From NCBI RefSeq assembly GCF_050320075.1, contig NZ_CP190018.1: a DNA stretch of 64,000 nt. One strand, 5' to 3'. This stretch comes from Escherichia coli. Lineage in GTDB: Bacteria > Pseudomonadota > Gammaproteobacteria > Enterobacterales > Enterobacteriaceae. Within the stretch, counting starts at the first letter, position 1. Each line of letters starts with the position of its first letter. Position numbers and translations under genes: made by a program. The notes under the pieces were generated by a model. That model ran no database searches. It had not been told where the DNA came from and saw only the letters and a list, made by a program, of their open reading frames with translations. Shown one piece after another: positions 1-13,496 of this stretch.

Positions 1-575
1 GAATTGATTTTAGAACTCGCAGGATTCGCGCTATTACTGGCCTTGTGTGATGTTGTATTGTTCCCTTCGCCCGCTCCAGAATCTCCCCAGGTGGAGAAGA
101 CTAAAAAAGTCTTCTCTGTCAGCAACTTAAACAGTTACCTATTTAATTTGCTTAGGAGTTCTACCATTGTGATCCGCCCTTAGTAACTGTCACGTTAAGT
201 TACACGGTGAGATGACAGTATAACCTAACGTTGGCGGCAGTTGCACCTCTCACACCGCGATAGCACAACGTGAAGATAAAGCCCATCCTGGCATTGTAAT
301 GTCATCGACAGACTGAACACACGCATTTAAGCCCGATGTGCGGCCTTGTGGCTGCGTAAACAGGTTTATGGTGATATTGGTCCTTGCAAACCATATGCAA
401 GCTCTATCAGCGTTTCAGCCACGCTCCCAACGGGTACACGGTTATCCTGATAAGGTGTGATCTTTCTGACAATCTGATGAAGTCGCTACGCTCCCGCTTG
501 TTGCTGTATCACCAACGGGGCTTTATGGTTTCTATTGTCTATAATAATCTCACAATTCCCCTGCATGAGGTTGAT

Positions 576-782
576 ATGACTGTTAGCTACAAGATTACTT
601 ATGAGCATAGAGACGGTGATCAAATTAGAATGGAAGAGGTTTTATTCCATTCAGAGCATGAACCAACAAAAGATGAAATTCATGATGCAGTAAGAAAAGA
701 TACTGTGAGATTTAATTCTCCATCTAATGGAGTAACGGCTGTTTCAGGGTTTAAAGTGATTTCGGTTGTCCCTGTTCCATGA
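576..782 (+). CDS. hypothetical small protein (68 aa); short form of ORF 384..782
   Basis: GAGG Shine-Dalgarno 5 nt upstream of ATG at 576; the longer form starting at 384 has no ribosome-binding site. No recognisable family. Confidence 0.35.
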   Translation: MTVSYKITYEHRDGDQIRMEEVLFHSEHEPTKDEIHDAVRKDTVRFNSPSNGVTAVSGFKVISVVPVP

Positions 783-815
783 ATGGTTATAGAAGGGGCT
801 GGAAGCCCCTAATTA

Positions 816-1136
816 TTACTTCTTAATATCGCCAGTGCATTGATATTCGATAGTCACAAGTGTTTGCATACAACCAGATGAAGAAGGTTGTGAACATTGA
901 GAAGTGAATCCACCAAAAGGCTCGGCTCCTGAATATCCCCAAGCGGCACAACGCGCTTTGGCTGCATTCATGCCTTGTTGTGGATCTACAACAGGGCTTT
1001 CAAACATACCGTAAGAATAACTCATCCTAACTGTGCCGTCTGATTTGCTTCCACCAGTTGGAACGAGTTGTTTTTTTGTTGCACATCCAGAAATAATCAA
1101 TGTTGAAGCAAGTAACAGCATTAAACTTTTGCGCAT
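816..1136 (-). CDS. putative lipoprotein (106 aa)
   Basis: N-terminal signal peptide with lipobox-like LIISGC in MRKSLMLLLASTLIISGCATKK; convergent with 576..782. Confidence 0.6.
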   Translation of the reverse strand: MRKSLMLLLASTLIISGCATKKQLVPTGGSKSDGTVRMSYSYGMFESPVVDPQQGMNAAKARCAAWGYSGAEPFGGFTSQCSQPSSSGCMQTLVTIEYQCTGDIKK

Positions 1137-1788
1137 GTAAATAATCCCAAGAGATAATGGTTATGTATTGATTTAAAGCGTTTTTAGATTAATGCATTAA
1201 CTTAGCAAAATTAAGTCTTTTCTGATTGTTTGCAGAGTAAAAATGAGTTGCTTTCGAAATTATTTCGGATGTTTATTGTATTACGGTTTTTCAAACCGTC
1301 TAACTATTGTCGCTATTGAATGGGCAATAATAGCAAGAGGATTCATTTCGTCATTGGAGGCAACAAAAAGTCGGTAACTAATAGCCACAACGAATGCAGC
1401 AATAACGAGAAAGCGGATAGTGCTAAGATGTTTTGAAGATAAATGCATAACGCCCCCTAAATGAATGTGAGGGGGATTAAATCATGCAAATTTGTTATGT
1501 GCAATACTGGTAATTTATCCTAATAGTCTACTATTCACCTCAATCTACGTCAACCAATATTTGATGTAGATTTAATTTTCTTTTAAAAACAATATGTTGC
1601 AATTTGTTGGATTTTTGGGTTAGGTTGTTTTTTGAACGTTTCCATCAAGTGTAAAGATACGTTTAGCCTTCATAGTGAGTTCAGTTACTGTCTTTTTATC
1701 TGAAATCGGCGCAAACGTGATCATCGCTTAACGAGAAGATCAGCGCCGTCAGGTCCACGCGGCGACAACTCTGAAATATCAGGAGGCA

Positions 1789-2346
1789 TTACGCTTCCTG
1801 CTCTTTCTTGATACGTTGCACCGTCTGTGTGCTGACACTGAAATCTTTTGCTACGCTCCGAATTGATCCACCATTCGCGAGAGCGGCAGCAATTCCTGCT
1901 CGATCAATTGCTTTTCCATTACCACGTTTTGCTATACGTCCAGCGGCCTTAGCTGCGGCGATCCCTTCACGTTGACGCTCAAGCATCATTTCACGTTCCA
2001 TTTGTGCCACTGCTGCAAGCACTGTGAGCATCATATTCCCTGCGGGAGAGTTCTTCCCTGTCTTAAAGTCTTCTTTATGGAAATGCACAGACACGCCGCG
2101 CTCTGTTAATTGCTCAACCGTTGCCAGTAGGTCGGCTGTATTACGGCAAAGTCGATCAATGCTGTGAACATGCAAAACATCACCTTCCCGCACATAGTTC
2201 ATCATTGCCTCAAACTGTGGGCGCTGGGTATTTTTGCCTGACGCTTTATCTTCAAAGACTTTATCAAGAGTTACTCCAGCTAATTGACGGTCTGTGTTTT
2301 GTTGGACAGTCGATACCCTAATGTATCCAATATTAGCCATTTTCAT
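1789..2346 (-). CDS. serine recombinase (resolvase / DNA invertase family)
   Basis: N-terminal IGYIRVSTVQQ catalytic-serine motif, 185 aa, C-terminal helix-turn-helix-like tail; typical small serine recombinase architecture. Confidence 0.85.
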   Translation of the reverse strand: MKMANIGYIRVSTVQQNTDRQLAGVTLDKVFEDKASGKNTQRPQFEAMMNYVREGDVLHVHSIDRLCRNTADLLATVEQLTERGVSVHFHKEDFKTGKNSPAGNMMLTVLAAVAQMEREMMLERQREGIAAAKAAGRIAKRGNGKAIDRAGIAAALANGGSIRSVAKDFSVSTQTVQRIKKEQEA

Positions 2347-3265
2347 TTTCCTTCTGTGTTGATTTGTGTGTAGTGATTATTGATCGTGTTGATTAGGTGT
2401 GTAAAGGACTTTTTTCACTACGAAATTCGAAGGTTTTTAGTGTGGTGATTTAGCCTGCTTTATCACTACACGTCTTGCATGAGAATCATGTAGTTACATT
2501 TTGGTAAAATTAGCAAGCTATTAAATAGTGTGTTTATTTTGAAAAAATAATTTTTTGTTGCATTAAAGGAAACTTGTTCAATAAATGATAGAACGTTTAT
2601 TGAGCAACAATTTTGCAGTGATGCGCTATATGCCGCATTACATAAGGCTTTGCTGATGATAATGTAAAAGTGAAGAAAGCTAACATTGCTCTTTTAAGCT
2701 ACTTTTCATTGAATTTTTAGTATGGAATTACATAGGGATAAACTATGAATATTCTATGATTTACACGAGATATTCTTGCTGTTTAATTCCGGCTTTGGAG
2801 ATCAGGCATTCGCAAGAATACGCTAACGCGTTGCCTGAAAAGCCATTGCACATAATAGAGGTGAGCGTATAGCGAACTATCAATGTGATCATTGCACGAA
2901 TGATAATGAGTGGATATAGATTCTATATATCGTTAGATTGTAGTTTGATAGTTAATGTGTAATGTAGATTGTATGAGCGTATAGCGAATGTTAGTTAGAT
3001 CAACAACAAACTAACCTTTAAATCTCTTTTATCTTCTCATAGATATGGCTATGCGTAGCAACCGAAGGTTAGCCAATCATCTCTATGCAGCCGTAAGGCT
3101 GTTTTGCATGTAATAGTTGTTTGTTGTTGTTAGACAGTTACCAATTTATAGATCAGAGATAGATGTGAGCGTTGAGCGATACACTAATCATAACAACATC
3201 TTCTTACTTTTTAGTTAGTTGTTAGTAGGTTATTGTTATGCGCGCTATTAGCGCATGTATAAAGG

Positions 3266-3371
3266 TATCATTTTTATCTAAAGGGCTTTAGACATTTTTG
3301 ATACCTTTTTCATCTCTAAAAAAGTGTAATTTTTATCTAAAGGGGCTTTAGACATTTTTTACACCTTTTTC
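3266..3371. repeat. two direct copies of a ~45 bp repeat, each with palindromic core TCTAAAGG(G)CTTTAGA
   Basis: Copy 1 ~3266..3311 and copy 2 ~3327..3371 are near-identical; cores at 3277..3292 and 3337..3353; extra TCTAAAG half-sites near 3412 and 3487. Operator- or iteron-like. Confidence 0.6.
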
Positions 3372-3515
3372 TGTGCAAGACACTTACCAGTGTGCACAAT
3401 ACTTATGCTTTTCTAAAGCCGGGAATTTTTAAGTTTGATTGATCAATTGTTAACTTTAAAAGTTACTTTTAACAATCACTTAGACGATCTAAAGCCGCAA
3501 TTAACATAATATAAG

Positions 3516-3545
3516 TTGACATGCAAGCACTTTTTACCGTATAGT
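3516..3545 (+). promoter_or_regulatory. sigma70-like promoter candidate (TTGACA, 18 nt spacer, TATAGT)
   Basis: Perfect -35 hexamer at 3516..3521, -10 TATAGT at 3540..3545; transcription would start at the 23 bp tandem repeat. Confidence 0.4.
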
Positions 3546-3553
3546 GCGGGTTT

Positions 3554-3604
3554 CCTACCTACCCAGGAAATGAGTTCCTACCTACCCAGGAAATGAGTTC
3601 CTAC
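3554..3604. repeat. 23 bp tandem repeat CCTACCTACCCAGGAAATGAGTT, about 2.2 copies
   Basis: Exact copies at 3554..3576 and 3577..3599, partial third copy (CCTAC) following. Confidence 0.75.
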
Positions 3605-4556
3605 AATACTATAATTAAACTACAATTAAACTATCTTTTATAAATTCTTTTATCTTTTAAAGAATAATTATAGGGATACCCGTTAGGGAGTCTTCGACTA
3701 TCCCTTAATCTATTGGCATTCGCCAGAACCTTGCACAAGTTAGACTGATGCTTGTCATAACAGATAGTTTTTGTTTTTTGTTAGTAGTTAGCTGATCTAT
3801 GTTCGCTTTCCGCTCACAACGAATATGTAATCTACTATGTGCAAATAGCCTACGGCTTGCGTATGGCTAATAGTCTTGCGCTGTGCGCAGAACGATAATT
3901 AACTAACTACCATCTAACGATTGAAATTTACTTGTGCAATAACCTGAGCATAAGCGAATGGTTGTTAGTGTCTATGCGCTGTGCGCTTCAATAGTTCCAT
4001 TGATGAGGCTTACGCCAATCTAACGATCATCAATCTATTTAAGAGAAAATCTATTGTGCAATACTCTGACGAGTGCAATAACCTTGTGTGCTACGCGTTA
4101 GCGATGTTAGCACATAGACACAGACAACAACCAACAACAAACAAAAAAGAAAGAATGGTTTTAGTAGTTGAAGGTTAAATAAGTTTCTACCGCTTAAATC
4201 AAGCCGTAGGCGAGCTAAACGTATATAAGGTAGGGAAACACTTAGCGGTAATAGATTAGCTCGTTATAGAGCTTCTGAGGAGCTTTACAGGTATTTTATA
4301 AGATGTCTGAAATCAGAGTTTATCTATCCACCATCTTTCCATCATCTGATAAATCAAAAATAAGCCCCTTAAATAAGCCTCTGACGAGATAAACAACCTC
4401 TACATAAGGGAATGTATTGTTTTTATCAAAACCCCCGTCAGAGTGCGATTGAGAGCGTTTTAGACAACAGGGAAGAATTGTACCAGAGTAGGCAGCACAA
4501 AAAGCTAAGAAAAATTATAAGAAATTGAAAATGATCAAGTTTTTTATAAAAGAGGG

Positions 4557-4585
4557 TTGACAAAGCCGCCGTTATGTAGTATTGT
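4557..4585 (+). promoter_or_regulatory. sigma70-like promoter candidate (TTGACA, 17 nt spacer, TATTGT) for the plus-strand operon
   Basis: -35 at 4557..4562, -10 at 4580..4585; first ORF of a co-directional gene string starts ~115 nt downstream. Confidence 0.5.
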
Positions 4586-4701
4586 AAGTAGGGAGGGGAG
4601 AAACATCTCTCTCCATCTAAATAATCAAATCACAGAACACTGCACTTTGAGCCGTCAGGCTGCAAGGTGTGTTTTTCTTTTATCTAAATAAGGAGTTTTT
4701 T

Positions 4702-4884
4702 ATGAAATGGTATACACCGGAACACGTCGTAGAGGCATTTAAAAAAGGTGAGCTAACACGACATCAAGTAAGGATGAACAGGAACACAGCGCGGCGCTGT
4801 GGTTATCCAGAGCGTGAAAAATGCTTTGACGATGCACTAAAAATTATTGATGAACTGCGTAAGGCAGAAGCAGAGAAAGAATAA
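4702..4884 (+). CDS. hypothetical small protein (60 aa)
   Basis: AGGAG 6 nt upstream of ATG 4702 (MKWYTPEHV...); first gene after promoter 4557. Confidence 0.5.
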   Translation: MKWYTPEHVVEAFKKGELTRHQVRMNRNTARRCGYPEREKCFDDALKIIDELRKAEAEKE

Positions 4885-4907
4885 TAACAGGAGAAGGAGA
4901 AAACCAA

Positions 4908-5084
4908 ATGAATATTAATTTTGATTCTGCAACTTATAACGCGTTGTTAAATCGTGCAAAGGCAGAAGGGAAATCAATTCCAAAACTTGTTAATGAATTA
5001 CTAATTACAGTCCTTACAAAGGAGGAACTAAATGAACCAAAACACCAAAACAATTGCCGAAGCAAAAGCGCAATGCCTCAATAA
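4908..5084 (+). CDS. ribbon-helix-helix-like small DNA-binding protein (58 aa), not in ORF track
   Basis: GGAGAAGGAGA before ATG 4908; MNINFDSATYNALLNRAKAEGKSIPKLVNELL resembles CopG/Arc-type RHH N-terminus; 3-prime end overlaps the next gene by 53 nt in another frame. Confidence 0.45.
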   Translation: MNINFDSATYNALLNRAKAEGKSIPKLVNELLITVLTKEELNEPKHQNNCRSKSAMPQ

Positions 5085-5697
5085 GAAAGATAGTAAACAA
5101 ACATATGTAGTAGTTGAACAATGGCTGAAGATGTTTAAAAAGTGGTTCTCACCGTCAGGTAAGGAATACACCGCGACACTTCCAGCCGTTGAAATCTACA
5201 GTTACGTAGCTGGGTTCAATGAACAAGGGCAAGAATGTTACGCCAATCAAAAAACATTAGCTAATATTGGAATGGTTAGTGATCGTCAGGTGCGTAATAT
5301 TATAAATATGTTTATTGATATGGGTGTTCTTTCTGTAGAGGCACGGGACGGGCAAACATCACTCTATAAAGCATTACCCTTTACAGATGCACACATCACA
5401 CCACCGGAAGACGTAAAAACCTCTGTAAACGTAGAACAGCCTGCACCTGAAACACAGGAACCGTTAGAAGCGACACACTCTATTGAGCAGGAAACACAGG
5501 CAGAAATCACGGAACAATCTGATCTTTTTACATGGCTTATTTCCATAGACAGCCAAAAGCCTATGCAAGAAGAAACAGAAAATTTTATAAAACGTGCACT
5601 GACCTCGAAGAGGATAATTCTTGAAGATGATGCTTTTAATGCACTGATGATAGCCCTGAGAAAAGAAAGTGAAATCTATGACTCAATACCATTTTAA
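5032..5697 (+). CDS. hypothetical protein with winged-helix-like N-terminus and acidic C-terminus; possible replication initiator or organiser
   Basis: Strong AAGGAGGA before ATG 5032; segment ANQKTLANIGMVSDRQVRNIINMFIDMGVLS resembles winged-helix DNA-binding domains of phage/plasmid Rep-type proteins. Assignment is by resemblance only. Confidence 0.45.
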   Translation: MNQNTKTIAEAKAQCLNKKDSKQTYVVVEQWLKMFKKWFSPSGKEYTATLPAVEIYSYVAGFNEQGQECYANQKTLANIGMVSDRQVRNIINMFIDMGVLSVEARDGQTSLYKALPFTDAHITPPEDVKTSVNVEQPAPETQEPLEATHSIEQETQAEITEQSDLFTWLISIDSQKPMQEETENFIKRALTSKRIILEDDAFNALMIALRKESEIYDSIPF

Positions 5698-5709
5698 GGA
5701 GAATAAAAA

Positions 5710-5967
5710 ATGAAATACAACCTGACATTAAACAAACGAACATTCGAAATTACAGAAAGCGGCTACACACTGGCAAAACAGCTTGCTGATAGCAATTATG
5801 AGCTACCCGCGATTATCAGCTTTCAGGAGTTACCTCATAGTAAAGAACACACACAGCACTGGTTAAATCACCTGAGCCATTTTGGGGTAATTAAGTATGA
5901 GGCTGTGAATAGTCAGACGTTCCGTTTGCTTGAGATAAGCCCTTTCGAATTGTGGGTGGCGCTGTGA
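5710..5967 (+). CDS. hypothetical protein (85 aa)
   Basis: ORF track; GGAG upstream; co-directional operon member. Confidence 0.5.
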   Translation: MKYNLTLNKRTFEITESGYTLAKQLADSNYELPAIISFQELPHSKEHTQHWLNHLSHFGVIKYEAVNSQTFRLLEISPFELWVAL

Positions 5968-6170
5968 CCATATTCGATAGCGAATTTTCACAAGAAACCT
6001 TTCTGCAATATTTACGGGAAAGAACGGGAATGATTCTGTTTGATTCTGAGTTTTCCGGTGTGGTAGGTGAGCAATTTTTATATGCTCTTCTCGATAGCCT
6101 AAGTAAACAAGGATTATTGCAGTATACCAAAACTCATATGAAAGCATTCAGAATCGACTCTGTAGCTTAA
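5952..6170 (+). CDS. hypothetical protein (72 aa, GTG start) with internal FDSEFS...FL.Y.L duplication
   Basis: ORF track; start codon is GTG overlapping the upstream stop; internal ~45 nt direct repeat at DNA level. Confidence 0.3.
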   Translation: MGGAVTIFDSEFSQETFLQYLRERTGMILFDSEFSGVVGEQFLYALLDSLSKQGLLQYTKTHMKAFRIDSVA

Positions 6171-6206
6171 AACAAACAACTATCAAACATCTTGAAGGGT
6201 GAAACA

Positions 6207-6347
6207 ATGGAAAGCTTAATATTTTTCTTAGTATTTATGATCGCTTCCTTTTTTAACACTGCAACAAGAAAAACAAAACGAAGGGGAAGCAATGAGCAAG
6301 AAAAAAGGCAAGAAAAACGTAATAACAACTATTGGCGAAGCATGTGA
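6207..6347 (+). CDS. candidate small single-pass membrane peptide (46 aa), not in ORF track
   Basis: ATG 6207 after AAGGG; MESLIFFLVFMIASFF hydrophobic helix then a basic tail (RKTKRRGS...); overlaps the start of ORF 6292 in another frame, so only one of the two may be real. Confidence 0.25.
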   Translation: MESLIFFLVFMIASFFNTATRKTKRRGSNEQEKRQEKRNNNYWRSM

Positions 6348-6672
6348 TCAGTATGCGTTAAACAATCCTCGCAAATATAATTATGAGCATGATGCACAAC
6401 CAGGCGAGGAATTGATCTTTATACTTGAAGAACCAAGCCCAGAATTAACAGACGAAGAATTATCACTCATTCAAAGTATGGACGGTGTTTACTTTAATCC
6501 GCGCCCACGCAAAACAACGGTTATAGATTCCAGTCTTCTGAAAAGATGGCAGTGTTTGGGTTTTCAGGATATGCACCACTTTAGGGGGTATATGGCTCTT
6601 AACAGTCTGCAATATGCAGGGGTGAGAGAAACCGAATTACTTCTGCTTGATAAAATAAAAATCGACGATTAA
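6292..6672 (+). CDS. hypothetical protein (126 aa)
   Basis: ORF track; AAGGGGA 5 nt upstream of ATG. Confidence 0.5.
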   Translation: MSKKKGKKNVITTIGEACDQYALNNPRKYNYEHDAQPGEELIFILEEPSPELTDEELSLIQSMDGVYFNPRPRKTTVIDSSLLKRWQCLGFQDMHHFRGYMALNSLQYAGVRETELLLLDKIKIDD

Positions 6673-6713
6673 CAGCGTTTGCTGAATATAACCCTTAACA
6701 AAAGGAAAATAAA

Positions 6714-6935
6714 ATGATTAACAAAGCAATTTTAGAGACAACCACTTTTCACGATCTTAAACTTCTTTCTGAATGCTTCATAAGCCTGATTGAACGTGCA
6801 CAGGAAGAAAACGATCTCGGTTTACTCGATGATATTATAGACAACATTGCAACTTATAAAATCCCGCTCACTATTGCTATGAAGAAAGCTCGTGAAGCAC
6901 AACAACAATTAGAACAATCAGAGGAAGTGGCATAA
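6714..6935 (+). CDS. hypothetical protein (73 aa)
   Basis: ORF track; AAGGAAA before ATG; co-directional. Confidence 0.45.
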   Translation: MINKAILETTTFHDLKLLSECFISLIERAQEENDLGLLDDIIDNIATYKIPLTIAMKKAREAQQQLEQSEEVA

Positions 6936-7243
6936 TGAGCGAAGTACACAACGTAACTATTGAAATGATGGATCTGGTTATTGATTTACAGAAAGCAGTA
7001 AACGCGGCTCTGACTTTTCCAAGCGAGCTAACCATCACACAGGCGGTTATTAATCTGGAATCGACGCGGGAAGCACTGCAACTACTTATTGCAGCGTGCG
7101 AAGAGAGCGAAGGTGCACAGATTGAAGCTGATGACCTTTCTAATCTGATCATCGTCATTCATGACACCACTGAAATCATGAAAGAAGCGGTAGCAGATCT
7201 GCAACCCCTCATTAATGAATTAATCGATAAGGCTAACAACTAA
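6935..7243 (+). CDS. hypothetical acidic protein (102 aa)
   Basis: ORF track; start overlaps upstream stop (ATAATG), suggesting translational coupling. Confidence 0.5.
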   Translation: MSEVHNVTIEMMDLVIDLQKAVNAALTFPSELTITQAVINLESTREALQLLIAACEESEGAQIEADDLSNLIIVIHDTTEIMKEAVADLQPLINELIDKANN

Positions 7244-7452
7244 TGTCAAAAACTAAACGTGTGCGCCTTCTGGCGCTCACAGAAGAAGGGAAAGCGGGTA
7301 ATTGTTTCACAGTAGGTAAAGTGTATACCGGCTTACTCGACACTTACACCCGCCTGATGCACGTAACCGATGATAACGGTAACGATCAAACAATCGTTTT
7401 AGATGGTAATTGCGTATTTGGTGAGTGGGAACTGACAACCGAAAAAAGTTGA
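7243..7452 (+). CDS. hypothetical protein (69 aa)
   Basis: ORF track; start overlaps upstream stop (TAATG). Confidence 0.5.
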   Translation: MSKTKRVRLLALTEEGKAGNCFTVGKVYTGLLDTYTRLMHVTDDNGNDQTIVLDGNCVFGEWELTTEKS

Positions 7453-7471
7453 AAATAATTGCATTTACCTA

Positions 7472-7500
7472 TTGACTTTTACTAACAGAAATGTTAGAAT
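7472..7500 (+). promoter_or_regulatory. near-consensus sigma70 promoter (TTGACT, 17 nt spacer, TAGAAT)
   Basis: -35 at 7472..7477, -10 at 7495..7500; followed by ~820 nt without any ORF of 60 codons or more on the plus strand. Confidence 0.55.
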
Positions 7501-7506
7501 AATAAA

Positions 7507-8291
7507 TGTTGGGTTTGGAATCGAAAATAGGTGTTAGCTGGCGTTAATCCTTCTCCCGATTCTAATCCTACACGAAAGCGGGGTAGACCTCAAGGGGTCG
7601 CGCCCTATCTAACCTATCCCGCTTTCCCTTTACAGTGATTTTTTAGAAATTGTTTCCCTCGTTAATAGTTTCATTTTATTTTCCTTATTGCTTTATCAAA
7701 ATTGTGTCTTAAGAATGCAGGGGCTACGGATTTGGCCCCTCATCTTTTTAACCAACTGCGAAGCATGAAACACTTTCTAAAAACACTGTTTACAGTGTCT
7801 ATAAACCCCGTATAAACAAATAACGGTGTATATCTGTTTCTTGACAACAGTTTTCTACTAAGCTTAAAGCTGAATATGTTTTTGTTTGTTGGTGTTTATT
7901 AAGGTGCCAATCTTAGAACGCGAAAGCGTGGATGATCCCCGAAATCATCTCGGCACCGCCTCCTATTAAAATGAGAATCCAAAAGGTTTGAAAGTTAATA
8001 GGTGATTCCTGAAAGTCTGATCGATGCATCCACATTGTGAAAGACAGCGATTAGCCGTCGCACGAATAACAGGTTTATAGATTCCTCTCCAAAGGGGGCG
8101 ACCTCCTAAGCGCCTACTCCCTGTAAGCCTGTTATTCACCCCTCAAGGGTATATAACAATAAGCAATCTTATTCTTATATGTCCTCCTCTTTAAGTTCAT
8201 ATAAACTGCGATTTAGTAACACTCTATAACATCCTTCAAATGTTGTATTCATAAAGCCGGAAGCTTTCCCCTTCCGGTTTTATTTTTATCA
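7507..8291 (+). ncRNA. candidate structured leader or noncoding RNA region
   Basis: ORF-poor; stem-loops at 7575..7626 (GAAAGCGGG / CCCGCTTTC), 7719..7749 (AGGGGC, 10 nt loop, GCCCCT then T-run) and 8065..8136 (AATAACAGG / CCTGTTATT); ends at terminator 8257..8291. Boundaries and function are inferred. Confidence 0.3.
8257..8291 (+). terminator. rho-independent terminator-like hairpin (CCGGAAG, loop, CTTCCGG, then T-run)
   Basis: Inverted repeat with following TTTTATTTTTAT, just upstream of the 8331 ORF. Confidence 0.5.
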
Positions 8292-8330
8292 GCACTAAAC
8301 AAGACTGTTAGGAATAAAGGTAAAGCAATA

Positions 8331-8546
8331 ATGCAAAATCTCATTCTAAAGAATGGTAACGAAGAATTGGTTATCACTGATGAAACATTCAATGCTACGG
8401 CTTATATGCTGGGGATCACTCCCACAGAATTGAAAAAACATTGTGATAAGCTTTTTAAGTCTGCTGATGAACAGAAACCTACTATGCAGGATCTGATTAA
8501 AGCAAAAGCAGAACAAATCAAACAATCCAAAAAAGGAAACTATTAA
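8331..8546 (+). CDS. hypothetical protein (71 aa)
   Basis: ORF track; immediately precedes the capsid-like gene pair. Confidence 0.5.
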   Translation: MQNLILKNGNEELVITDETFNATAYMLGITPTELKKHCDKLFKSADEQKPTMQDLIKAKAEQIKQSKKGNY

Positions 8547-8548
8547 TT

Positions 8549-8920
8549 ATGGCTATTATTAATATGAGCGATCTGTTTCCAGTTCGCAAATCATTTACCG
8601 ATATCGTTTCATATGCAACTGATGAGTTCGGTTGTGTGCAATCTTTTACCGTTGATCTGGCGGTTGATGTTGAATGCGGCGATCTGATTACCAGTGACGG
8701 CGCTGAATATGTAAGCGGCGGCGATGTTCTTGTAGTTGTGTCTGATGCGGTATCCGCTGGCGACGCTAAAACCGTTAACGTGCTGCGTAGCAATGCCGGA
8801 CTGGTTTGCATCAAGTCCGATGCTCTGAATGTTGAAGGCGCTGTGAAAGAAGCTGCTATTGCTGCCCTGGCTGCAAAAGGTTTCCAGATGGCTGGTTTTA
8901 ACACTGTATTCACATCTTAA
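8549..8920 (+). CDS. putative virion structural protein (123 aa), possibly head-decoration-like
   Basis: Small Gly/Ala/Val-rich protein directly upstream of and coupled to the 342 aa gene; codon usage is strongly biased toward highly-expressed E. coli codons. Resemblance to a lambda D-type decoration protein is by size and arrangement only. Confidence 0.4.
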   Translation: MAIINMSDLFPVRKSFTDIVSYATDEFGCVQSFTVDLAVDVECGDLITSDGAEYVSGGDVLVVVSDAVSAGDAKTVNVLRSNAGLVCIKSDALNVEGAVKEAAIAALAAKGFQMAGFNTVFTS

Positions 8921-8938
8921 TATAAAGGAATAAAAATA

Positions 8939-9967
8939 ATGATTATTGGTAATGAATCCGTCGATCTGGCTCCGCTGTTTAGTCTGCACGACTCTCGCAA
9001 CTTCCTGTTAACTTCTCTCGACTTTACTGATCCGGTAGGTGTGAGTTCTCATAAAGTGGCTGTTAGCCAACTGGTGGAAACTAACGAATCTCTGTTCAAC
9101 AAAGAAACCTCTCGTTTCTCTTCTGAACATAACGTGACTAAACGTGAACAGGGTAAAGAATTTTTAGTAGAGATCCCCTACTTCCTGCGTGAAGATATGA
9201 TTAAGCCGCAAGACGTGCAAGGCAAACGTAAACCAGGCGCTACCGTTGAAGAAACTCTGACAGATATCTACGCGGAATATGTTGCTAAGCACCACATTGC
9301 TTTCCAGCGTACTAAAGAAAGCGTGCTGGCTGCTTCCCTGTTCTCTGGTCGCACTTACACCCCTAAAACTGATGATGTGCTGATCCAGTGGGGCGATCTG
9401 TTTAGTGTTGTTCCGATGACTGCAACCATCGACGCATCAAGCACCACGCCTTCTATGGTGTTCCAGCAATTCGATCAGATGCATACAGACGTTATTACTA
9501 AAGCACAAAGCCAGGCGGCTGCTGTAGAACGTATCGTTGTATTCTGTAAACCTGCTGCTTTCAACGCTATCCGTTACAGTGCTGGCATGGTTAACGCGTT
9601 CCAGTATGCAAGCCCTACCGATGACGCAAACATCGTTTATAGCGTGCGCTCCCTGCTGCCAGGTGTGACTACCTTCACTATTCCTGGGACTAACATCGAT
9701 ATCGTTAAAGTTACTGATCCGCTGCTGCTGGCTCATATGACTTCTGATGCGGTTGCTGTTCCGAAGTTCGCTAAAGGCTCTAACGTCTATCAGAACATTT
9801 TCAGCGCTCCTTCTTCAACGTTCGACCTGCTGAATTCTGGCGCGGCTGAATATTACAGCTATGCGTTTAGCCCAGCACGTAACGACGCTGTAAACGTAGT
9901 TACTGAGAATAGCCAGATGGTTGTAAACCACGGCGTAGGCTTCACTGTACAGATCACAGTAGCGTAA
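8939..9967 (+). CDS. putative major capsid-like protein (342 aa)
   Basis: Size and position (after a ~120 aa protein) resemble a lambda D/E-type head gene pair; AAGGAA RBS; codons strongly optimised (CGT, CTG, TCT, AAC, GAA) unlike neighbouring genes. Not confirmed by homology. Confidence 0.45.
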   Translation: MIIGNESVDLAPLFSLHDSRNFLLTSLDFTDPVGVSSHKVAVSQLVETNESLFNKETSRFSSEHNVTKREQGKEFLVEIPYFLREDMIKPQDVQGKRKPGATVEETLTDIYAEYVAKHHIAFQRTKESVLAASLFSGRTYTPKTDDVLIQWGDLFSVVPMTATIDASSTTPSMVFQQFDQMHTDVITKAQSQAAAVERIVVFCKPAAFNAIRYSAGMVNAFQYASPTDDANIVYSVRSLLPGVTTFTIPGTNIDIVKVTDPLLLAHMTSDAVAVPKFAKGSNVYQNIFSAPSSTFDLLNSGAAEYYSYAFSPARNDAVNVVTENSQMVVNHGVGFTVQITVA

Positions 9968-10120
9968 TAAAGCGTTAATAGTCGTTTCCTGTGCGACTGG
10001 AAATAAAACAGGCAATAAGGGCAAAAGGGATTATTAAACCTGTAGCGCAAATACAGTAAACAATCTCTTTTGCCCTTTTTTCGTTTATACCGTCTATTAA
10101 AATATTGTGAGAGAAAAATC

Positions 10121-10312
10121 ATGAGCGAACAAAACAACAATCCAGTTGAGATCCTGAAAGCTGTTTCCACCTTACCGGAAGATATTCTGAATATCTCTCA
10201 AGTGTGTAAGTTTTTAGGGATCTCTAATACTGCTGTACGTCAAAGAATCTTCACTACTGGCTGCTCAGCTATGGAAGCAGTGCAATACTACGTAACAAAA
10301 CAAAACAAATAA
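10121..10312 (+). CDS. hypothetical small protein (63 aa), possible HTH
   Basis: Internal ATG of ORF 10070..10312 (MSEQNNNPVEIL...); segment ISQVCKFLGISNTAVRQRI is helix-turn-helix-like. Confidence 0.35.
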   Translation: MSEQNNNPVEILKAVSTLPEDILNISQVCKFLGISNTAVRQRIFTTGCSAMEAVQYYVTKQNK

Positions 10313-10330
10313 AAGGTAAAGGAAAATATT

Positions 10331-12172
10331 ATGGATTTAAACATCTCAACCTTAACAAACAAGGTTGTATTTAAAGTTGATTTTGCATCATTACAGAAAG
10401 CAAGGGACGCAGGGAAGAAATTTCAGAAAGAAATGGAAAACCTAACCAATCCAACATTGAAAGGGAAGAAGGCTAAACGAGCTATAGACGAGGCTCATGA
10501 TCTGGTAAAGGCTCGTAAAGCTGCACAGGCTAAAACTGATGCCAAAGCGTCAGACAAGCAAGCTCAAACCGATAAGAAGAACGCTGATAAGGTGGCAAAG
10601 GCAGAAGCTAAAGCGAAGGCTAAAGCCGCTATAGCTGCCGATAAACAGATCCGCGCTAAAGCGACAATAGCAGAGAAAGCAGAGATTAAGCGCCAGCAAG
10701 CTTTCAGACAGCTTGAAGGGATTAAGAAAGGGCGTATGGGCGACGGTATGGACTCCGCCCAATACTACAAAACGTTGCAATACATCAAAGCACAAACGGC
10801 AGCGTATGAGAAAGGCGCTATTAGTCAGGCTAAGATGAATCACCTGATCCGTGATCGTATCACGTTAGAACGCCGTGCGGCTGCTGTAAAAGCTCGCCAG
10901 GTGGCGGCTGATGGCGGTAAATATCCACATATGGCTAAACAGCTTAAAGGCGGTCATATAGGCGGTGGTGTAGGTGCAATGGTGGGCGGTGCCGCTCTCA
11001 CTGCTGCCACTCTCGGCGGTGCTGCGATATTCAATACCGTAACCGATCAGGCAAGCAAGATCACAGACACTAACCGCAAGGCAAAGGCTGTCAACGTAAA
11101 CACTAACGCCCTGTTAGCACTTAATCAGTACGGCTTAGAACACGGTGTCGATAGTTCCGTAGACCAACGTCAAGACAACCTTAAAGACGTTCAAGAGCGT
11201 TTAGGTGAATCCGTAGGGAATACCAAATGGGACGCTAAGAAAGGTCGCTGGGCTGGCGGTAATGGTGCCGTCGATAACATCCTTAATAAATATGGTTGGA
11301 GTCCTGAACAGATTAAAGGTTTCCAGACTGATCCATTAGGTTTCCTGGGCGCTGTAGTGAAAGAAGGAGAACGCCGTGGACTCTCTGATCAGGAGCAGGG
11401 TCACATCCTTGAAGACCTTGGAAATGATTTACAATATTTCCGTGGTGCTTTCAGTCGTAACGGTGAAGAGCTAAATAAAACCATCGTTAAGATGCAAAAA
11501 GCCAATGCCACCTATGCGCAAGCGGATCTTGACGCTGCTGAACGTCTGCAAGCTGTACAGGCTAATATGAATATGGCCTGGGAAGGTAGTAAGAAAGCTA
11601 TCATGACGGGATTCGGTGAAGAGTTCGACGCTCAGGCTGGTGAAGAGTGGGCGCAAATGTTGAAAGATCTCAATCCTCTGTTTAAAGAACTTGGAAGCTC
11701 AACGGCTGAAATGATGAGCGCCTTTGCTGGTGCTGTATCGTGGCTTACTGCTGCATACCAGAATATAAATCCAGAGAACAAACATGAAAACCTTGATTCG
11801 TCCGGTATGTATTATAAGGATTCGTTTGTAGGCGGCATGGTTGATTGGGGTCGTAGTGCTTTAGGCTTATCGCCTATCCCTGGCACGGAAGACAAGCCAA
11901 CGACTGGCGGAACTGCAATTCAGAACTATTCAAGCCCGTCCGATAACGTGCAATCCCTGAAAGAGAACGTTAGCCGTGATCTGAACACTACCCCATCTAT
12001 GACGTATGCGCCAAGCATTGTCGTAAACGTGCCAGAAAGTAAGGTTGATGTGAATATCGCTCCTGATGGTAGTCAGCTTGGATCATACCTCGATTACAAA
12101 GTGGGAAGTATCCAACAAGATTTTGAACGTAGTTTCACGTTGGCGGCTCTGTCTGGGCAAGCACCAAGTTAA
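10331..12172 (+). CDS. large coiled-coil / glycine-zipper protein (613 aa); tape-measure-, scaffold- or DNA-pilot-like
   Basis: Lys/Ala-rich coiled-coil stretch (KAKAKAAIAADKQIRAKATIAEKAEIKRQQ), then glycine-zipper hydrophobic segment GGHIGGGVGAMVGGAALTAATLGGAAIF. Function inferred from composition only. Confidence 0.5.
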   Translation: MDLNISTLTNKVVFKVDFASLQKARDAGKKFQKEMENLTNPTLKGKKAKRAIDEAHDLVKARKAAQAKTDAKASDKQAQTDKKNADKVAKAEAKAKAKAAIAADKQIRAKATIAEKAEIKRQQAFRQLEGIKKGRMGDGMDSAQYYKTLQYIKAQTAAYEKGAISQAKMNHLIRDRITLERRAAAVKARQVAADGGKYPHMAKQLKGGHIGGGVGAMVGGAALTAATLGGAAIFNTVTDQASKITDTNRKAKAVNVNTNALLALNQYGLEHGVDSSVDQRQDNLKDVQERLGESVGNTKWDAKKGRWAGGNGAVDNILNKYGWSPEQIKGFQTDPLGFLGAVVKEGERRGLSDQEQGHILEDLGNDLQYFRGAFSRNGEELNKTIVKMQKANATYAQADLDAAERLQAVQANMNMAWEGSKKAIMTGFGEEFDAQAGEEWAQMLKDLNPLFKELGSSTAEMMSAFAGAVSWLTAAYQNINPENKHENLDSSGMYYKDSFVGGMVDWGRSALGLSPIPGTEDKPTTGGTAIQNYSSPSDNVQSLKENVSRDLNTTPSMTYAPSIVVNVPESKVDVNIAPDGSQLGSYLDYKVGSIQQDFERSFTLAALSGQAPS

Positions 12173-12228
12173 TGATAAAGAGAATGTTTAATCACCATTT
12201 AAAACACTCTTATAAGGAATTAAGCATA

Positions 12229-12259
12229 TAAGAGGCTCCCATTACAAGGAAGCCTCTTT
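12229..12259. terminator. bidirectional terminator-like hairpin between convergent 613 aa gene and integrase
   Basis: Inverted repeat AGAGGCT(CC) ... (GGA)AGCCTCT flanked by A/T-rich runs. Confidence 0.4.
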
Positions 12260-12279
12260 ATTGCGCCTATGGCGTTGTT

Positions 12280-13441
12280 TTAAGCCTTAAAATCAATATT
12301 TAATTCATATCTTACTAATTCTACATATTCAGCTAATTCTGGAATGCTTGCCCCTTGTGAGTAGGTGCGAAAGGCTTCTGTTTTAGCTCTCTGCTCTGTA
12401 TGTCCGGTAATGGCACCGATCCGCTGTTCAGGCACTCCGGCACGATCAAGACAAGTGATAAACATCCCGCGCAAGCTGTGAAAGCATTGTCTATTTGTAG
12501 CGATTGGCAAGACGCTACGACGTAAACGTGAGAACGCTTGAGAATAGAACGGGCCTTTCTTACCGTCGATTCTTTTTACTTTGTTCGAGTGAGGGAACAA
12601 ATATTCACCATAATTATGATTTAAATATTCATCGACAATAATCGATAGTCTCGAATGTATCGGAACGTGCCTGATCCCTGCTTTAGTCTTACTTTTGCTG
12701 ATATAAAAACAGCGTATTCCTTCCACAGTTACAACCTCTGACTTTTTCAGACTTGCCAGTTCGTCTAATCTGCATCCTGAAAACAAGCCCATTAAAATAA
12801 TATTTCTGATCTCCGGCTCCGCTGCATCAAGTAGCTTTTGCATTTGTTCAGGTGTAAACGGTTGATAACTCTCGATTGTGCGACGTGCTTCGAGATTATG
12901 ACCGTGAAAAGGGTTACTGTCTGGTATTCCGTCATAACGGCGTTTAGCAAATTCATAGAGCGATCCTAAGCATGTAAGCCAGTTTTGACGAGATTGATCG
13001 GCTGCTCCTCGTTGCTTCTGGTCATCTAAGAATACTGTTACAAGCCGTCTGCCTATTTTCTCAATATGAATATCATCTTTCTGAATGCTTTGTAAAAATA
13101 GCTCAACGGCCCTTGCTGATTTCTGTAGTGTTGAGTATGAACGACGCTCTCTGTAGCATTCGGCGTATTCGTCACGTATTAAGCATAGGGAAGGCGATGC
13201 ATAACCGCGTTTTACGGCTCTTTGCGTGTTTTTATTGGCCCTTGCCTCTGAATGTAAGGATTCAATAGCTTGTTGTAACCTCCTTTCGGGGTTATCAGGA
13301 TTATGTTTCCGCTTTAGTTCCTCCCATTCTAATAATAGATGGTTTCTGAATCTTCTCGCCTCATTCAGATCTCGTGTAGATGTGCTTTTTCTCCACAACT
13401 TGTAAGGGTAAAGATGACGTAAGTATTTAGGAACAAAAATC
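12280..13441 (-). pseudogene. tyrosine recombinase / integrase with 5-prime end disrupted by IS1
   Basis: C-terminal catalytic motifs of tyrosine recombinases (R in GCRLDEL, HSLRGMF, GHTEQ...FRTYSQG). The ORF's first 5 codons (to 13455) lie inside the IS1 inverted repeat, so the native start and promoter are missing. Confidence 0.8.
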
Positions 13442-13496
13442 GGTGATGCTGCCAACTTACTGATTTAGTGTATGATGGTGTTTTTGAGGTGCTCCA

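What the first reader, a model, noticed from the sequence alone, without database searches (positions are those of the whole stretch)
384..2346. Small protein, lipoprotein and serine recombinase at the left edge
A convergent pair (68 aa protein, 106 aa lipoprotein) sits next to a serine recombinase with no obvious invertible segment or hix-type site. Imperfect palindromes at 1283..1299 (ACGGTTTTTCAAACCGT) and ~1446..1481 (CCCCCT...GAGGGGG) could be recombination sites. The recombinase may be the element's resolvase or the switch of a neighbouring invertible segment.
Basis: partly seen in the sequence, partly recalled or inferred. Interest (0 to 1): 0.4.

Follow-up and report, generated by a model that had tools for sequence, protein, structure and literature searches.

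The report
Resolvase cassette in a satellite-like island
The recombinase is most likely an ordinary self-regulated resolvase whose real target site lies just upstream of its own gene; it is a swappable accessory cassette in the cargo arm of a 13-kb tRNA-integrated, phage-satellite-like island of E. coli, and is not an inversion switch.

Summary
The three genes are real: a small ORF (525/576-782), a YecR-family lipoprotein (816-1136) and a 183-aa small serine recombinase (1789-2340). All three lie in the variable cargo arm of a ~13-kb island integrated at tRNA-Gly (attL core 61-78), with its tyrosine integrase at the far end (12280-13455).

Neither palindrome is a recombination site. 1446-1481 is a hairpin that sequesters the ribosome-binding site and start codon of a 55-aa hydrophobic ORF. 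It shows compensatory changes in relatives. 1283-1299 is not conserved.

The recombinase's likely target is a tripartite array of GTGTAGTGAT half-sites directly upstream of its gene (2354-2472), overlapping its own promoter. A 68%-identical homologue in another genus has the same motif and layout. Relatives with different recognition helices have different half-sites. The array occurs once per locus and is nearly invariant.

I found no inversion isoform: none among ~720-795 matching complete E. coli genomes, and 27 fetched loci carrying a recombinase of this family are all collinear.

Related islands carry a different serine recombinase, a small tyrosine recombinase next to a PD-T7-4 defence gene, or no recombinase. 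The closest outside relatives sit on 2-6 kb plasmids.

Best reading: a res/resolvase monomerisation cassette. It is ordinary; the surrounding island is more interesting.

The parts
61..78 (+). attL core of the island: an 18-bp copy of the 3' end of tRNA-Gly (TTCCCTTCGCCCGCTCCA). Bases 1-60 belong to a different, P4-like island inserted in tandem.
   Evidence: In intact relatives the same 18-mer flanks the island on both sides (L005 10812-10829 and 23918-23935; L003 likewise). In this strain the right copy is missing and IS1 sits at 13442-14209.
525..782 (+). Small ORF of unknown function (85 aa from 525; 68 aa from ATG 576). Dispensable cargo.
   Evidence: ORF list and PGAP annotation. No Pfam, PHROG, NCBIfam or PADLOC match. 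Absent from L003, L004, L006, L093 and L094.
794..810 (.). GC-rich hairpin between the convergent genes; probably a bidirectional terminator.
   Evidence: Terminator-like scan: AGGGGCTGGAAGCCCCT, 7 pairs.
816..1136 (-). YecR-family lipoprotein (106 aa). Dispensable cargo.
   Evidence: Pfam YecR 1.8e-23 over the full profile; signal peptide with lipobox LIISGC. Absent from several related islands.
1281..1448 (-). 55-aa ORF with one predicted membrane helix, possibly a type-I-toxin-like peptide.
   Evidence: ORF. Annotated in relatives as a 52-aa hypothetical protein. The exact sequence is on 572 contigs. It evolves fast (omega ~0.6 against the L004 allele). No family match.
1444..1488 (-). Leader hairpin that pairs the Shine-Dalgarno sequence (AGGGGG, 1453-1458) and the AUG (1446-1448) of the 55-aa ORF.
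   Evidence: The window and L004/L006 alleles give the same fold. The inner stem reads CCCCCT/AGGGGG in one and CTTCCT/AGGAAG in the other, i.e. two pairs changed on both sides (z -1.6 and -2.9). A sigma-70-like promoter lies at 1553-1525 on the - strand.
1789..2340 (-). Small serine recombinase, 183 aa (the ORF extends to 2346): N-terminal catalytic domain and C-terminal helix-turn-helix.
   Evidence: Pfam Resolvase 1e-38. Aligned over residues 3-184 with Tn3 and gamma-delta resolvases (E ~2e-27) and Gin (E ~5e-25), with RVST and DRLxR motifs. 19 synonymous against 1 non-synonymous difference from the IncF-plasmid copy, omega 0.014.
2354..2472 (.). res-like array of recombinase half-sites (consensus GTGTAGTGAT). 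Site I: 2440-2471 (GTGTGGTGAT-N12-ATCACTACAC). Site II: 2385-2423 (CGTGTTGAT-N20-TTCACTACGA). Site III: 2356-2377 (two direct half-sites).
   Evidence: Three sites with at most 1 mismatch fall within 105 bp; 0 of 2000 shuffles match that. L013 has the same motif and spacing. Half-sites differ where the recognition helix differs. The cluster is present only in loci with this recombinase type, once each.
2376..2405 (-). Predicted promoter of the recombinase gene (-35 TTTACA 2405-2400, -10 AATAAT 2381-2376), lying inside sites II and III. This implies autorepression.
   Evidence: Promoter scan, 10 of 12 positions. In L013 a TTGACA-17-CATAAT promoter read by eye from the sequence occupies the same position within the array.
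1730..2575 (.). The swappable recombinase cassette (gene, res-like array and ~100 bp more of invariant non-coding DNA), sitting between conserved blocks 1310-1729 and 2571-2750.
   Evidence: L094 keeps 1310-1729 and 2571-2750 but has an unrelated 183-aa secreted protein in between. In L093 the arm 541-2575 is replaced. The 2340-2579 bins show 0-2 mismatches in five of seven alleles, against 18-20 per 60 bp just beyond in six of seven alleles.

Best explanation
The gene at 1789-2340 encodes a small serine recombinase that works as a resolvase on a Tn3-style, three-subsite res site immediately upstream of its own gene (2354-2472).

Proposed mechanism:
- Dimers bind the distal palindromic site I (2440-2471), the presumed crossover site.
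- Dimers also bind accessory sites II and III, which overlap the -35 and -10 of the gene's promoter, so the protein represses its own synthesis.
- When two copies of the site lie in direct repeat on one molecule, the accessory sites trap a defined synapse and the enzyme deletes the DNA between them.

Two direct copies would arise after the 13-kb island has excised and replicated, when circles dimerise, or in a tandem or cointegrate array. The cassette therefore keeps the island monomeric. It is not a switch.

Shown here: protein family and intact catalytic motifs; strong purifying selection; the site array, its conservation, and its co-variation with the recognition helix; its single-copy state; the absence of inversion isoforms; the cassette's modular distribution.

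Inferred: that the protein binds these half-sites, that site I is the crossover site, the autorepression, and the biological role (monomerisation during the island's replicative phase).

The small ORF, the YecR lipoprotein and the 55-aa ORF are independent cargo, not partners of the recombinase.
For: Family and integrity: (omega 0.014).

Site:
- The half-site cluster lies upstream of the start codon and nowhere else in the 64-kb window or in the 20 kb to its left.
- The 68%-identical homologue in Enterobacteriaceae RIT691 sits in a different island, next to tRNA-Pro. It has the same recognition helix (STQTVQRIKK), the same GTGTAGTGAT half-sites, and the same layout: F-12-R, a gap, F-21-R, then direct half-sites, with a promoter inside.
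- Homologues with other helices have other half-sites in the same place: STRTV with GTAGTAAT (L008); SLNTV with TGTATCGAT (L009); APSTV with GTATTCATTTGG, including a 28-bp palindrome with a central AT (L006).
- The non-coding stretch 2340-2579 differs at only 2 positions from the L004 allele, while the gene's synonymous divergence from that allele is 0.168 and the next 60 bp differ at 19 positions.
- The promoter lies inside the array.

Single copy and no inversion.

Context typical of resolvases: the nearest relatives outside the island family are on 2-6 kb plasmids, one of which (pDETEC86, 1985 bp) has no other annotated gene. The island has a replication-initiator-like gene and repeat arrays that would fit an origin. 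The C-terminal arm motif G-K-A-I-D-R resembles GRKRKIDR of gamma-delta resolvase in the alignment.
Against: - No experiment or read-level data: binding, crossover position and directionality are all inferred.
- The protein scores almost as well against Gin invertase as against Tn3/gamma-delta resolvases, and its best PHROG is labelled 'DNA invertase'. Sequence alone therefore does not separate the two classes.
- The island was never found as a free replicon in 5,426 complete E. coli genomes; the only non-chromosomal copy is inserted in an IncF plasmid. A need for multimer resolution is thus hypothetical and limited to a presumed induced phase.
- The cassette is dispensable: about half of related islands lack it.
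- In one near-identical island the same position holds a 192-aa tyrosine recombinase whose weak family matches include tyrosine-type DNA invertases as well as Xer proteins.
- One Enterobacter relative has the recombinase in the opposite orientation, although next to an IS3 at a contig end.
Confidence: 0.6

Rival explanations
1. DNA invertase (Hin/Gin/Cin/Pin type) flipping a neighbouring segment, for example a promoter in the 2.3-kb ORF-free region, to switch the island's + strand operon on and off.
For: Size and domain order fit invertases as well as resolvases, and the best PHROG is labelled DNA invertase. A long non-coding region with strong + strand promoters (3516-3545, 4557-4585) lies next to the gene. 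That region contains weak long-range inverted repeats: 2821-2851/4073-4103 at 74% and 2929-2954/3896-3921 at 85%. A FimB/E-sized tyrosine recombinase occupies the same position in L093.
Against: The recombinase half-site motif occurs in a single cluster; none of the inverted repeats carries it. Two synthetic inverted-isoform queries were run, one with 1297-2480 flipped and one with 2851-4072 flipped. They reached at least 80% coverage in 0 of 795 and 0 of 721 matching E. coli genomes, and the best hits stayed at the 63% expected for the unflipped state. All 27 fetched loci carrying a recombinase of this family are collinear. A multi-subsite array over the promoter is a resolvase feature. Scores against the invertase family model (Mpi) are far below cut-off.
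Confidence: 0.08
2. A selfish, plasmid-derived res/recombinase cassette that is a passenger in the cargo hotspot. It is a working resolvase but has no role in the island's life cycle, or it serves mainly to form and resolve cointegrates with small plasmids carrying the same site and so spreads itself.
For: Cassette boundaries are sharp (1730 and 2575), and the cassette is replaced or missing in otherwise similar islands. It also occurs in an unrelated 5-kb tRNA-Pro island. Related recombinases lie on tiny plasmids that share nothing else with the island. Low divergence across the whole cassette is compatible with recent spread.
Against: Three different recombinase cassettes (two serine alleles with different site specificity, one tyrosine) occupy the same slot in the same orientation. 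This suggests selection for the function at that position. No flanking repeats or junctions point to site-specific insertion of the cassette.
Confidence: 0.2
3. Leftover resolvase of a Tn3-family transposon (a cointegrate resolvase), unrelated to the island.
For: The closest solved structures are Tn3 and gamma-delta resolvases. The gene-plus-res layout is that of tnpR.
Against: No transposase gene and no Tn3-type terminal repeats lie in or around the cassette. The cassette is embedded at the same place in islands at glyU, at thrW and on an IncF plasmid. The gene is under strong purifying selection rather than decaying.
Confidence: 0.05
4. The recombinase excises or integrates the left cargo arm, or the whole island, acting as an integrase.
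For: The island's tyrosine integrase sits at the end far from the tRNA, which leaves the tRNA-proximal end with only this recombinase.
Against: The island is bounded by an 18-bp tRNA-derived direct repeat, typical of tyrosine integrases, and islands without the serine recombinase are integrated identically. Small recombinases with a C-terminal HTH are not known to act as integrases (established knowledge of the family). There is no half-site motif at either island end.
Confidence: 0.03

Closest known systems
Tn3 / gamma-delta TnpR-res (cointegrate resolution)
   Same: A ~183-aa serine recombinase with the same domain order and catalytic motifs. The site lies directly upstream of the gene. It has three subsites of unequal spacing spanning ~119 bp (Tn3 res is 114 bp, from general knowledge), with the palindromic site farthest from the gene and the promoter inside the proximal subsites.
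   Different: No transposase and no transposon ends. The half-site sequence is unrelated (GTGTAGTGAT). Subsite lengths differ (about 32, 39 and 22 bp against 28, 34 and 25). Site III appears to consist of direct rather than inverted half-sites. The host is an integrative island, not a transposon.
Plasmid multimer-resolution serine resolvases (RK2/RP4 ParA-res; Sin of staphylococcal plasmids; beta recombinase of pSM19035)
   Same: A stand-alone gene-plus-site cassette without a transposase, and the presumed role of keeping a circular replicon monomeric. The nearest relatives are on very small plasmids. Direct-repeat half-sites in an accessory site recall Sin and beta site II (general knowledge).
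   Different: Here the cassette sits in a chromosomally integrated island that was never seen as a free plasmid. No requirement for an architectural protein (HU/IHF) could be assessed. No close sequence relationship to these proteins was shown (Sin scores E ~3e-18).
Hin/Gin/Cin/Pin DNA invertases
   Same: Protein size and fold. A phage- or satellite-related host element.
   Different: No pair of inverted crossover sites, no invertible segment, and no orientation polymorphism. A multi-subsite array takes the place of a simple 26-bp site plus enhancer.
P1 Cre-lox and ColE1 cer-XerCD (functional analogues)
   Same: Site-specific monomerisation of a phage-related or plasmid replicon. The tyrosine-recombinase cassette in the same slot of L093 would be the analogous solution.
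   Different: A different enzyme family and a different site architecture.
Type I toxin-antitoxin loci such as hok/sok (for the 55-aa ORF and the 1446-1481 palindrome)
   Same: A short hydrophobic peptide with its own promoter and a leader that hides the SD and AUG in a hairpin kept by compensatory changes.
   Different: No sequence similarity to any known toxin family. No antisense-RNA promoter was detected. Toxicity is untested.

Membership tests
Small serine recombinases (resolvase/invertase family) | N-terminal catalytic domain with the nucleophilic serine and conserved arginines | tested here: met
   Pfam PF00239 at 1e-38 over profile positions 2-144. The alignment to Tn3/gamma-delta shows RVST (the serine aligns with gamma-delta Ser10) and DRLCRN (aligns with DRLGRD).
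Small serine recombinases (resolvase/invertase family) | C-terminal helix-turn-helix DNA-binding domain; total length ~180-200 aa | tested here: met
   183 aa. The alignment with gamma-delta resolvase runs to residue 182. HTH_23 and HTH_Tnp_ISL3 match at residues 146-182, just below their cut-offs.
res/resolvase systems | A composite res site next to the gene: a crossover site plus accessory binding sites with different half-site spacing | tested here: met
   Six half-sites in three subsites at 2354-2472. The same architecture is found in L013, and analogous arrays with other half-sites occur in L006, L008, L009 and L010. This is sequence evidence only; binding was not shown.
res/resolvase systems | Autoregulation: the gene's promoter lies within the site | tested here: met
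   The predicted -35 (2405-2400) and -10 (2381-2376) fall inside sites II and III. A promoter read by eye from the L013 sequence lies at the equivalent position in that array. This is a prediction, not expression data.
res/resolvase systems | Resolution restricted to directly repeated sites on one molecule (topological filter) | not testable with these tools
   Needs an in vivo or in vitro recombination assay.
Tn3-family transposon (cointegrate resolvase) | Adjacent DDE transposase and ~38-bp terminal inverted repeats | tested here: not met
   No such ORF or repeats in the island or its relatives.
DNA invertases (Hin/Gin/Cin/Pin) | Two crossover sites in inverted orientation flanking an invertible segment | tested here: not met
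   Only one cluster of half-sites per locus; none in the rest of the window or in the 20 kb to its left. The inverted repeats found lack the motif.
DNA invertases (Hin/Gin/Cin/Pin) | Both orientations of the segment present among isolates | tested here: not met
   Synthetic inverted-isoform queries reached at least 80% coverage in 0 of 795 and 0 of 721 genomes. The 27 fetched loci carrying a recombinase of this family are collinear. Rare subpopulations within a culture cannot be excluded, because assemblies are consensus sequences.
DNA invertases (Hin/Gin/Cin/Pin) | Fis-dependent recombinational enhancer | not testable with these tools
   No reliable sequence signature; not assessed.
Type I toxin-antitoxin (55-aa ORF) | Small hydrophobic peptide whose translation start is occluded by mRNA structure | tested here: met
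   One predicted membrane helix. The SD/AUG hairpin is conserved with two compensatory pairs.
Type I toxin-antitoxin (55-aa ORF) | Cis- or divergently-encoded antisense RNA | tested here: inconclusive
   A + strand terminator-like hairpin lies at 1542-1572, but no + strand promoter was found upstream of it. No Rfam match.

The most novel reading that the evidence does not exclude
The cassette is one of several interchangeable site-specific recombinase cassettes (two serine specificities, one tyrosine) in the cargo arm of a previously undescribed family of capsid-encoding satellites of virulent phi92/phAPEC8-like (Stephanstirmvirinae) phages in E. coli. On this reading it turns replicated satellite DNA into unit-length circles for packaging. 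Switching of site specificity would prevent cross-recombination between satellites that share a chromosome at glyU and thrW.
Probability: 0.2. Interest if true: 0.6.

Novelty: new member of a known kind. Interest (0 to 1): 0.3.

Why it matters
For the finding itself, little changes. A widespread but unstudied E. coli 'recombinase family protein' (the exact sequence is on at least 1000 contigs) can now be read as a resolvase with a defined candidate res site. The 'possible inversion switch' can be dropped.

It also shows that the tRNA-proximal arm of this island family is a cargo hotspot. The hotspot exchanges recombinase cassettes, a known defence gene (PD-T7-4) and lipoprotein or small-peptide genes.

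The larger value lies in the context. The island looks like an undescribed satellite type linked to large virulent coliphages. If so, it would give E. coli an equivalent of the Vibrio PLE/ICP1 system that can be tested with BASEL-collection phages.

Tried and rejected
- Rfam scans of 1-14000 and of the small plasmids found nothing at E <= 1.
- Repeat mapping over 1-14000 gave only weak inverted repeats (<=33 nt, 70-86% complementary), none flanking the recombinase and none carrying its half-site.
- A half-site search allowing 2 mismatches was uninformative: 20 hits against 14 expected, and a cluster of 3 occurred in 51 of 200 shuffles. At <=1 mismatch the cluster is unique.
- The idea that the satellite's recombinase targets its helper phage was rejected: the res region has no match in 50,697 phage records.
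- The idea that the tiny plasmids are excised forms of the island was rejected: they share only the recombinase.
- Viral-contig loci found with the capsid protein were integrated copies flanked by the island's integrase and longer than the island, so they say nothing about packaging.
- The 219-bp piece 322-545, shared with many plasmids, has no significant single-strand fold (z -0.06) and no annotation; it remains unexplained.
- Literature searches for a described satellite of Stephanstirmvirinae, or for this island at glyU/thrW, found nothing. That does not prove it is undescribed.
- PADLOC gave no defence-family hit for the four left-arm proteins of the window.
Full report
**Where this is.** The window matches the chromosome of E. 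coli YZLc1-3 at 100% identity.

In that genome the order is actS, tRNA-Gly (glyU), a 19-kb P4-like island, and then the window. Bases 1-60 are the end of the P4-like island. At 61-78 sits an 18-bp copy of the tRNA 3' end (TTCCCTTCGCCCGCTCCA).

In strains without the P4-like island, the tRNA itself abuts window position 61. In intact relatives the same 18-mer recurs about 13.1 kb to the right, about 90-150 bp beyond a tyrosine integrase gene (L005 10812-10829 and 23918-23935; also L003).

The whole finding therefore lies in the tRNA-proximal arm of one ~13-kb integrative island, window 61 to ~13455. Its integrase (12280-13455, - strand) is at the distal end. Its right att copy is missing here, and IS1 sits at 13442-14209.

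Islands of the same family lie at thrW (L006, L007, L094), and one is inserted in an IncF plasmid (L004). Parts of 1250-5100 match in 730 of 5,426 complete E. coli genomes.

**The observation.** All three genes exist as described.
- The + strand small ORF ends at 782. Possible starts are 576 (68 aa, behind GAGG) and 525 (85 aa, PGAP). It has no family match.
- The - strand ORF 816-1136 is a YecR-family lipoprotein (Pfam 1.8e-23, lipobox LIISGC).
- A GC hairpin at 794-810 separates the convergent pair.
- The - strand ORF 1789-2346 is a small serine recombinase (Pfam Resolvase 1e-38). Relatives and PGAP start it at 2340 (MANIGY), which also gives better spacing to the AGGA.

The small ORF and the lipoprotein are absent from several otherwise similar islands (L003, L004, L006, L093, L094). 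They are cargo, not partners of the recombinase.

**The two palindromes.** It is annotated as a 52-aa hypothetical protein in relatives.

The 'CCCCCT...GAGGGGG' palindrome lies in this ORF's leader. Folded as RNA, the - strand 1444-1488 forms a hairpin. The inner stem pairs the Shine-Dalgarno sequence AGGGGG, and the outer stem pairs the AUG.

The divergent allele in L004/L006 folds the same way, with CTTCCT/AGGAAG in place of CCCCCT/AGGGGG. That is two base pairs changed on both sides. A sigma-70-like promoter lies at 1553-1525. This is a translational-control hairpin of a type-I-toxin-like peptide, not a recombination site.

The other palindrome (1283-1299) is a 7-bp stem in the last codons of the same ORF. 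It folds only modestly better than shuffles. It also lies just outside the block conserved in relatives, which begins at 1297-1310.

**The recombinase's real site.** The 120 bp directly upstream of the start codon carry repeated half-sites of consensus GTGTAGTGAT:
- 2440-2449 and 2462-2471 in inverted orientation with a 12-bp spacer (site I);
- 2385-2393 and 2414-2423 in inverted orientation with a 20-bp spacer (site II);
- 2356-2363 and 2368-2377 as direct repeats (site III).

Three sites with at most one mismatch fall within 105 bp. None of 2000 composition-preserving shuffles of the window gives such a cluster.

Because the motif was read from this sequence, the independent check matters more. 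A 68%-identical recombinase in Enterobacteriaceae bacterium RIT691 sits in a different, ~5-kb island next to tRNA-Pro. It has an identical recognition helix. Upstream of it are the same half-sites in the same order and spacing (F-12-R, gap, F-21-R, then direct half-sites), with a promoter inside.

Homologues with other recognition helices carry other half-sites at the same place:
- ST**R**TV with GTAGTA**A**T (L008);
- SLNTV with TGTATCGAT (L009);
- APSTV with GTATTCATTTGG, including a 28-bp palindrome with a central AT (L006).

The cluster is found in every locus with this recombinase type, once per locus. It is found in none without that type, and there is none in the 20 kb left of the window.

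The predicted promoter of the gene (-35 at 2405-2400, -10 at 2381-2376) lies within sites II and III.

Constraint is strong. Against the IncF-plasmid allele the gene shows 19 synonymous and 1 non-synonymous differences (dS 0.168, omega 0.014). The non-coding stretch 2340-2579 shows only 2 differences, and the next 60 bp show 19.

**Is anything inverted?** No.
- Repeat mapping shows no inverted pair flanking the gene. The weak long-range repeats in the neighbouring non-coding region lack the half-site.
- I built two artificial 'flipped' versions of the locus, one with 1297-2480 inverted and one with 2851-4072 inverted, and searched all complete E. coli genomes. A genome holding either isoform would match the query over at least 80% on one strand. 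None of 795 and none of 721 matching genomes did, and the best hits stayed at the 63% expected for the unflipped arrangement.
- Twenty-seven fetched loci carry a recombinase of this family, from chromosomes, one plasmid, IMG/VR prophage records and ten distinct contexts of the exact protein. All 27 are collinear, with the recombinase divergent from the island's operon.
- The only exception is an Enterobacter contig in which the gene is flipped. An IS3 element abuts it there, at the contig end.

Assemblies are consensus sequences, so a rare subpopulation cannot be excluded.

**A swappable cassette in a cargo arm.** Comparison with relatives shows how modular this arm is.
- L094 keeps 1310-1729 and 2571-2750 but has an unrelated 183-aa secreted protein between them.
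- In L093 the rest of the island (2576-13441) is ~94-97% identical where it aligns. Its arm 541-2575 is replaced by a PD-T7-4 defence gene, two small ORFs, and a 192-aa catalytic-domain-only tyrosine recombinase. That gene has the same orientation and its own array of GATTAAA repeats upstream.
- L006, L007 and five IMG/VR loci carry a second serine-recombinase allele with different half-sites between the same flanks.
- About half of the related islands have no recombinase.

Outside this island family, the nearest relatives (64-79% identity) are on 2-6 kb plasmids that share nothing else with the island. They include a 1,985-bp plasmid whose only annotated gene is the recombinase, with its upstream array.

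**Mechanism proposed.** The evidence fits a Tn3-style res/resolvase unit.

Shown:
- family membership and intact catalytic motifs;
- purifying selection;
- a conserved, helix-matched, multi-subsite array over the promoter;
- one copy per element;
- no inversion.

Inferred:
- dimers bind the three subsites;
- site I is the crossover site;
- occupancy of sites II and III represses the gene;
- two direct copies on one molecule are recombined to delete the intervening DNA.

Such a substrate arises only when the island exists as a dimer, a tandem array or a cointegrate. It would most plausibly arise after integrase-mediated excision and replication. The island has a replication-initiator-like protein (5032-5697) and repeat arrays in its 2.3-kb ORF-free region.

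I put this at about 0.6. The main weaknesses:
- there are no functional data;
- protein similarity does not separate resolvases from invertases;
- the island was never seen as a free replicon;
- the cassette is dispensable.

**Rivals.**
- An inversion switch (0.08) is contradicted by the single site and the uniform orientation.
- A selfish plasmid-derived passenger cassette (0.2) shares the same enzymology and differs only in who benefits. The recurrence of three different recombinase cassettes in the same slot argues mildly for a function at that position.
- A Tn3-transposon remnant (0.05) fails for lack of a transposase or ends, and because of the strong purifying selection.
- A role as integrase of the arm or the island (0.03) fails because islands without it are integrated identically at the same tRNA-derived repeats.

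**Comparison with known systems and novelty.** It works like TnpR-res of Tn3/gamma-delta and like plasmid multimer-resolution systems (ParA of RK2, Sin, beta).
- It meets the sequence-testable defining features of a small serine recombinase and of a res-type site.
- It fails the defining features of a Tn3 transposon and of the Hin/Gin invertase systems.
- Directionality cannot be tested here.

It is a new member of a known kind.

**The context deserves more attention than the finding.** The island encodes a lambda-E-type capsid protein (8939-9967) and a 613-aa protein (10331-12172). Their nearest phage homologues (24-32% identity) are all in ~150-kb virulent Phapecoctavirus, Justusliebigvirus and related myoviruses.

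It shares 107 bp at 97% identity (4894-5000, the start of a small ORF) with Justusliebigvirus phages such as BASEL Bas60. No ORF long enough for a large terminase or portal, other than the 613-aa protein, is present. It therefore looks like a satellite of those phages.

I found no description of such an element.

Noticed in passing
window 61-13455 (capsid-like gene 8939-9967; 613-aa ORF 10331-12172; 4894-5000): The island looks like an undescribed phage satellite. It is integrase-bounded and ~13 kb, with an E-type capsid protein and a 613-aa protein whose nearest phage homologues (24-32% aa) are all in ~150-kb virulent Phapecoctavirus, Justusliebigvirus and related phages. A 107-bp stretch is 97% identical to Justusliebigvirus phages (BASEL Bas60 gene bas60_0101). 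No ORF long enough for a large terminase or portal, other than the 613-aa protein, is present. No paper describing it was found.
   Followed up: partly
window 2571-4660: A 2.1-kb stretch with no credible ORF inside the island core. The ends are conserved (2571-2750, 3549-3921, 4018-4904) and the centre is hypervariable (2750-3549). It contains a motif, TGAGCGTATAGCGAA, at 2862, 2974, 3166 (+) and 3802 (-) (9 hits against 1.7 expected). It also has two ~60-bp repeats at 3258-3371 and a near-consensus promoter at 3516-3545 followed by two 23-bp repeats (3552-3597) that each form a TTCCT/AGGAA hairpin. It could be an origin, a packaging site or non-coding RNA genes. The 2590-2766 block also occurs in hundreds of genomes with no annotated feature.
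   Followed up: partly
window 322-545: A 219-bp unannotated piece is 90.6% identical to DNA on about 60 plasmids of Escherichia, Salmonella, Citrobacter, Enterobacter, Serratia, Morganella and Providencia; in the one plasmid inspected it lies beside relBE. Its right end coincides with the left boundary of the island's variable cargo arm (540-556). It has no significant single-strand fold.
   Followed up: partly
L093 (NZ_CP069893.1) 6639-9000, equivalent to window 541-2575: In an island with a near-identical core (~94-97% where aligned), the cargo arm carries the PD-T7-4 anti-phage gene (PADLOC 6e-90) and a 192-aa tyrosine recombinase consisting of the catalytic domain only. An array of GATTAAA-type repeats lies upstream of that gene. 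This is a non-homologous replacement of the serine recombinase cassette.
   Followed up: partly
L008 (NZ_CP116175.1, plasmid pDETEC86, 1985 bp): A complete circular 2-kb plasmid whose only annotated gene is a 68%-identical serine recombinase with its upstream half-site array. The remaining ~1.4 kb is G+C-rich, repetitive and unannotated, with no Rfam match, so how the plasmid replicates is unclear.
   Followed up: partly
L001 1095-18715 (the 20 kb left of the window): A P4-like island (integrase, DUF927 primase, Icd-like, antirepressor genes) is inserted in tandem at the same tRNA-Gly. It carries three consecutive large hypothetical genes (843, 686 and 918 aa) and a fourth small gene, which might be a defence system.
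   Followed up: no
window 1625-1678 (- strand) and 1542-1572 (+ strand): Between the recombinase and the 55-aa ORF there is a conserved 17-codon ORF (MKAKRIFTLDGNVQKTT; one substitution in relatives). There is also a 12-pair hairpin with a T-tail on the + strand that overlaps the promoter of the 55-aa ORF. Either could be part of the control of that peptide, for example an antisense RNA terminator.
   Followed up: no
window 13442-14209 and beyond: An IS1 copy sits where the island's right att copy would lie, directly upstream of the integrase. It is followed by remnants of the ETT2 type III secretion island (ygeH, ygeG, yqeK, yqeJ, yqeI, yqeH). This copy of the island probably cannot excise precisely.
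   Followed up: no
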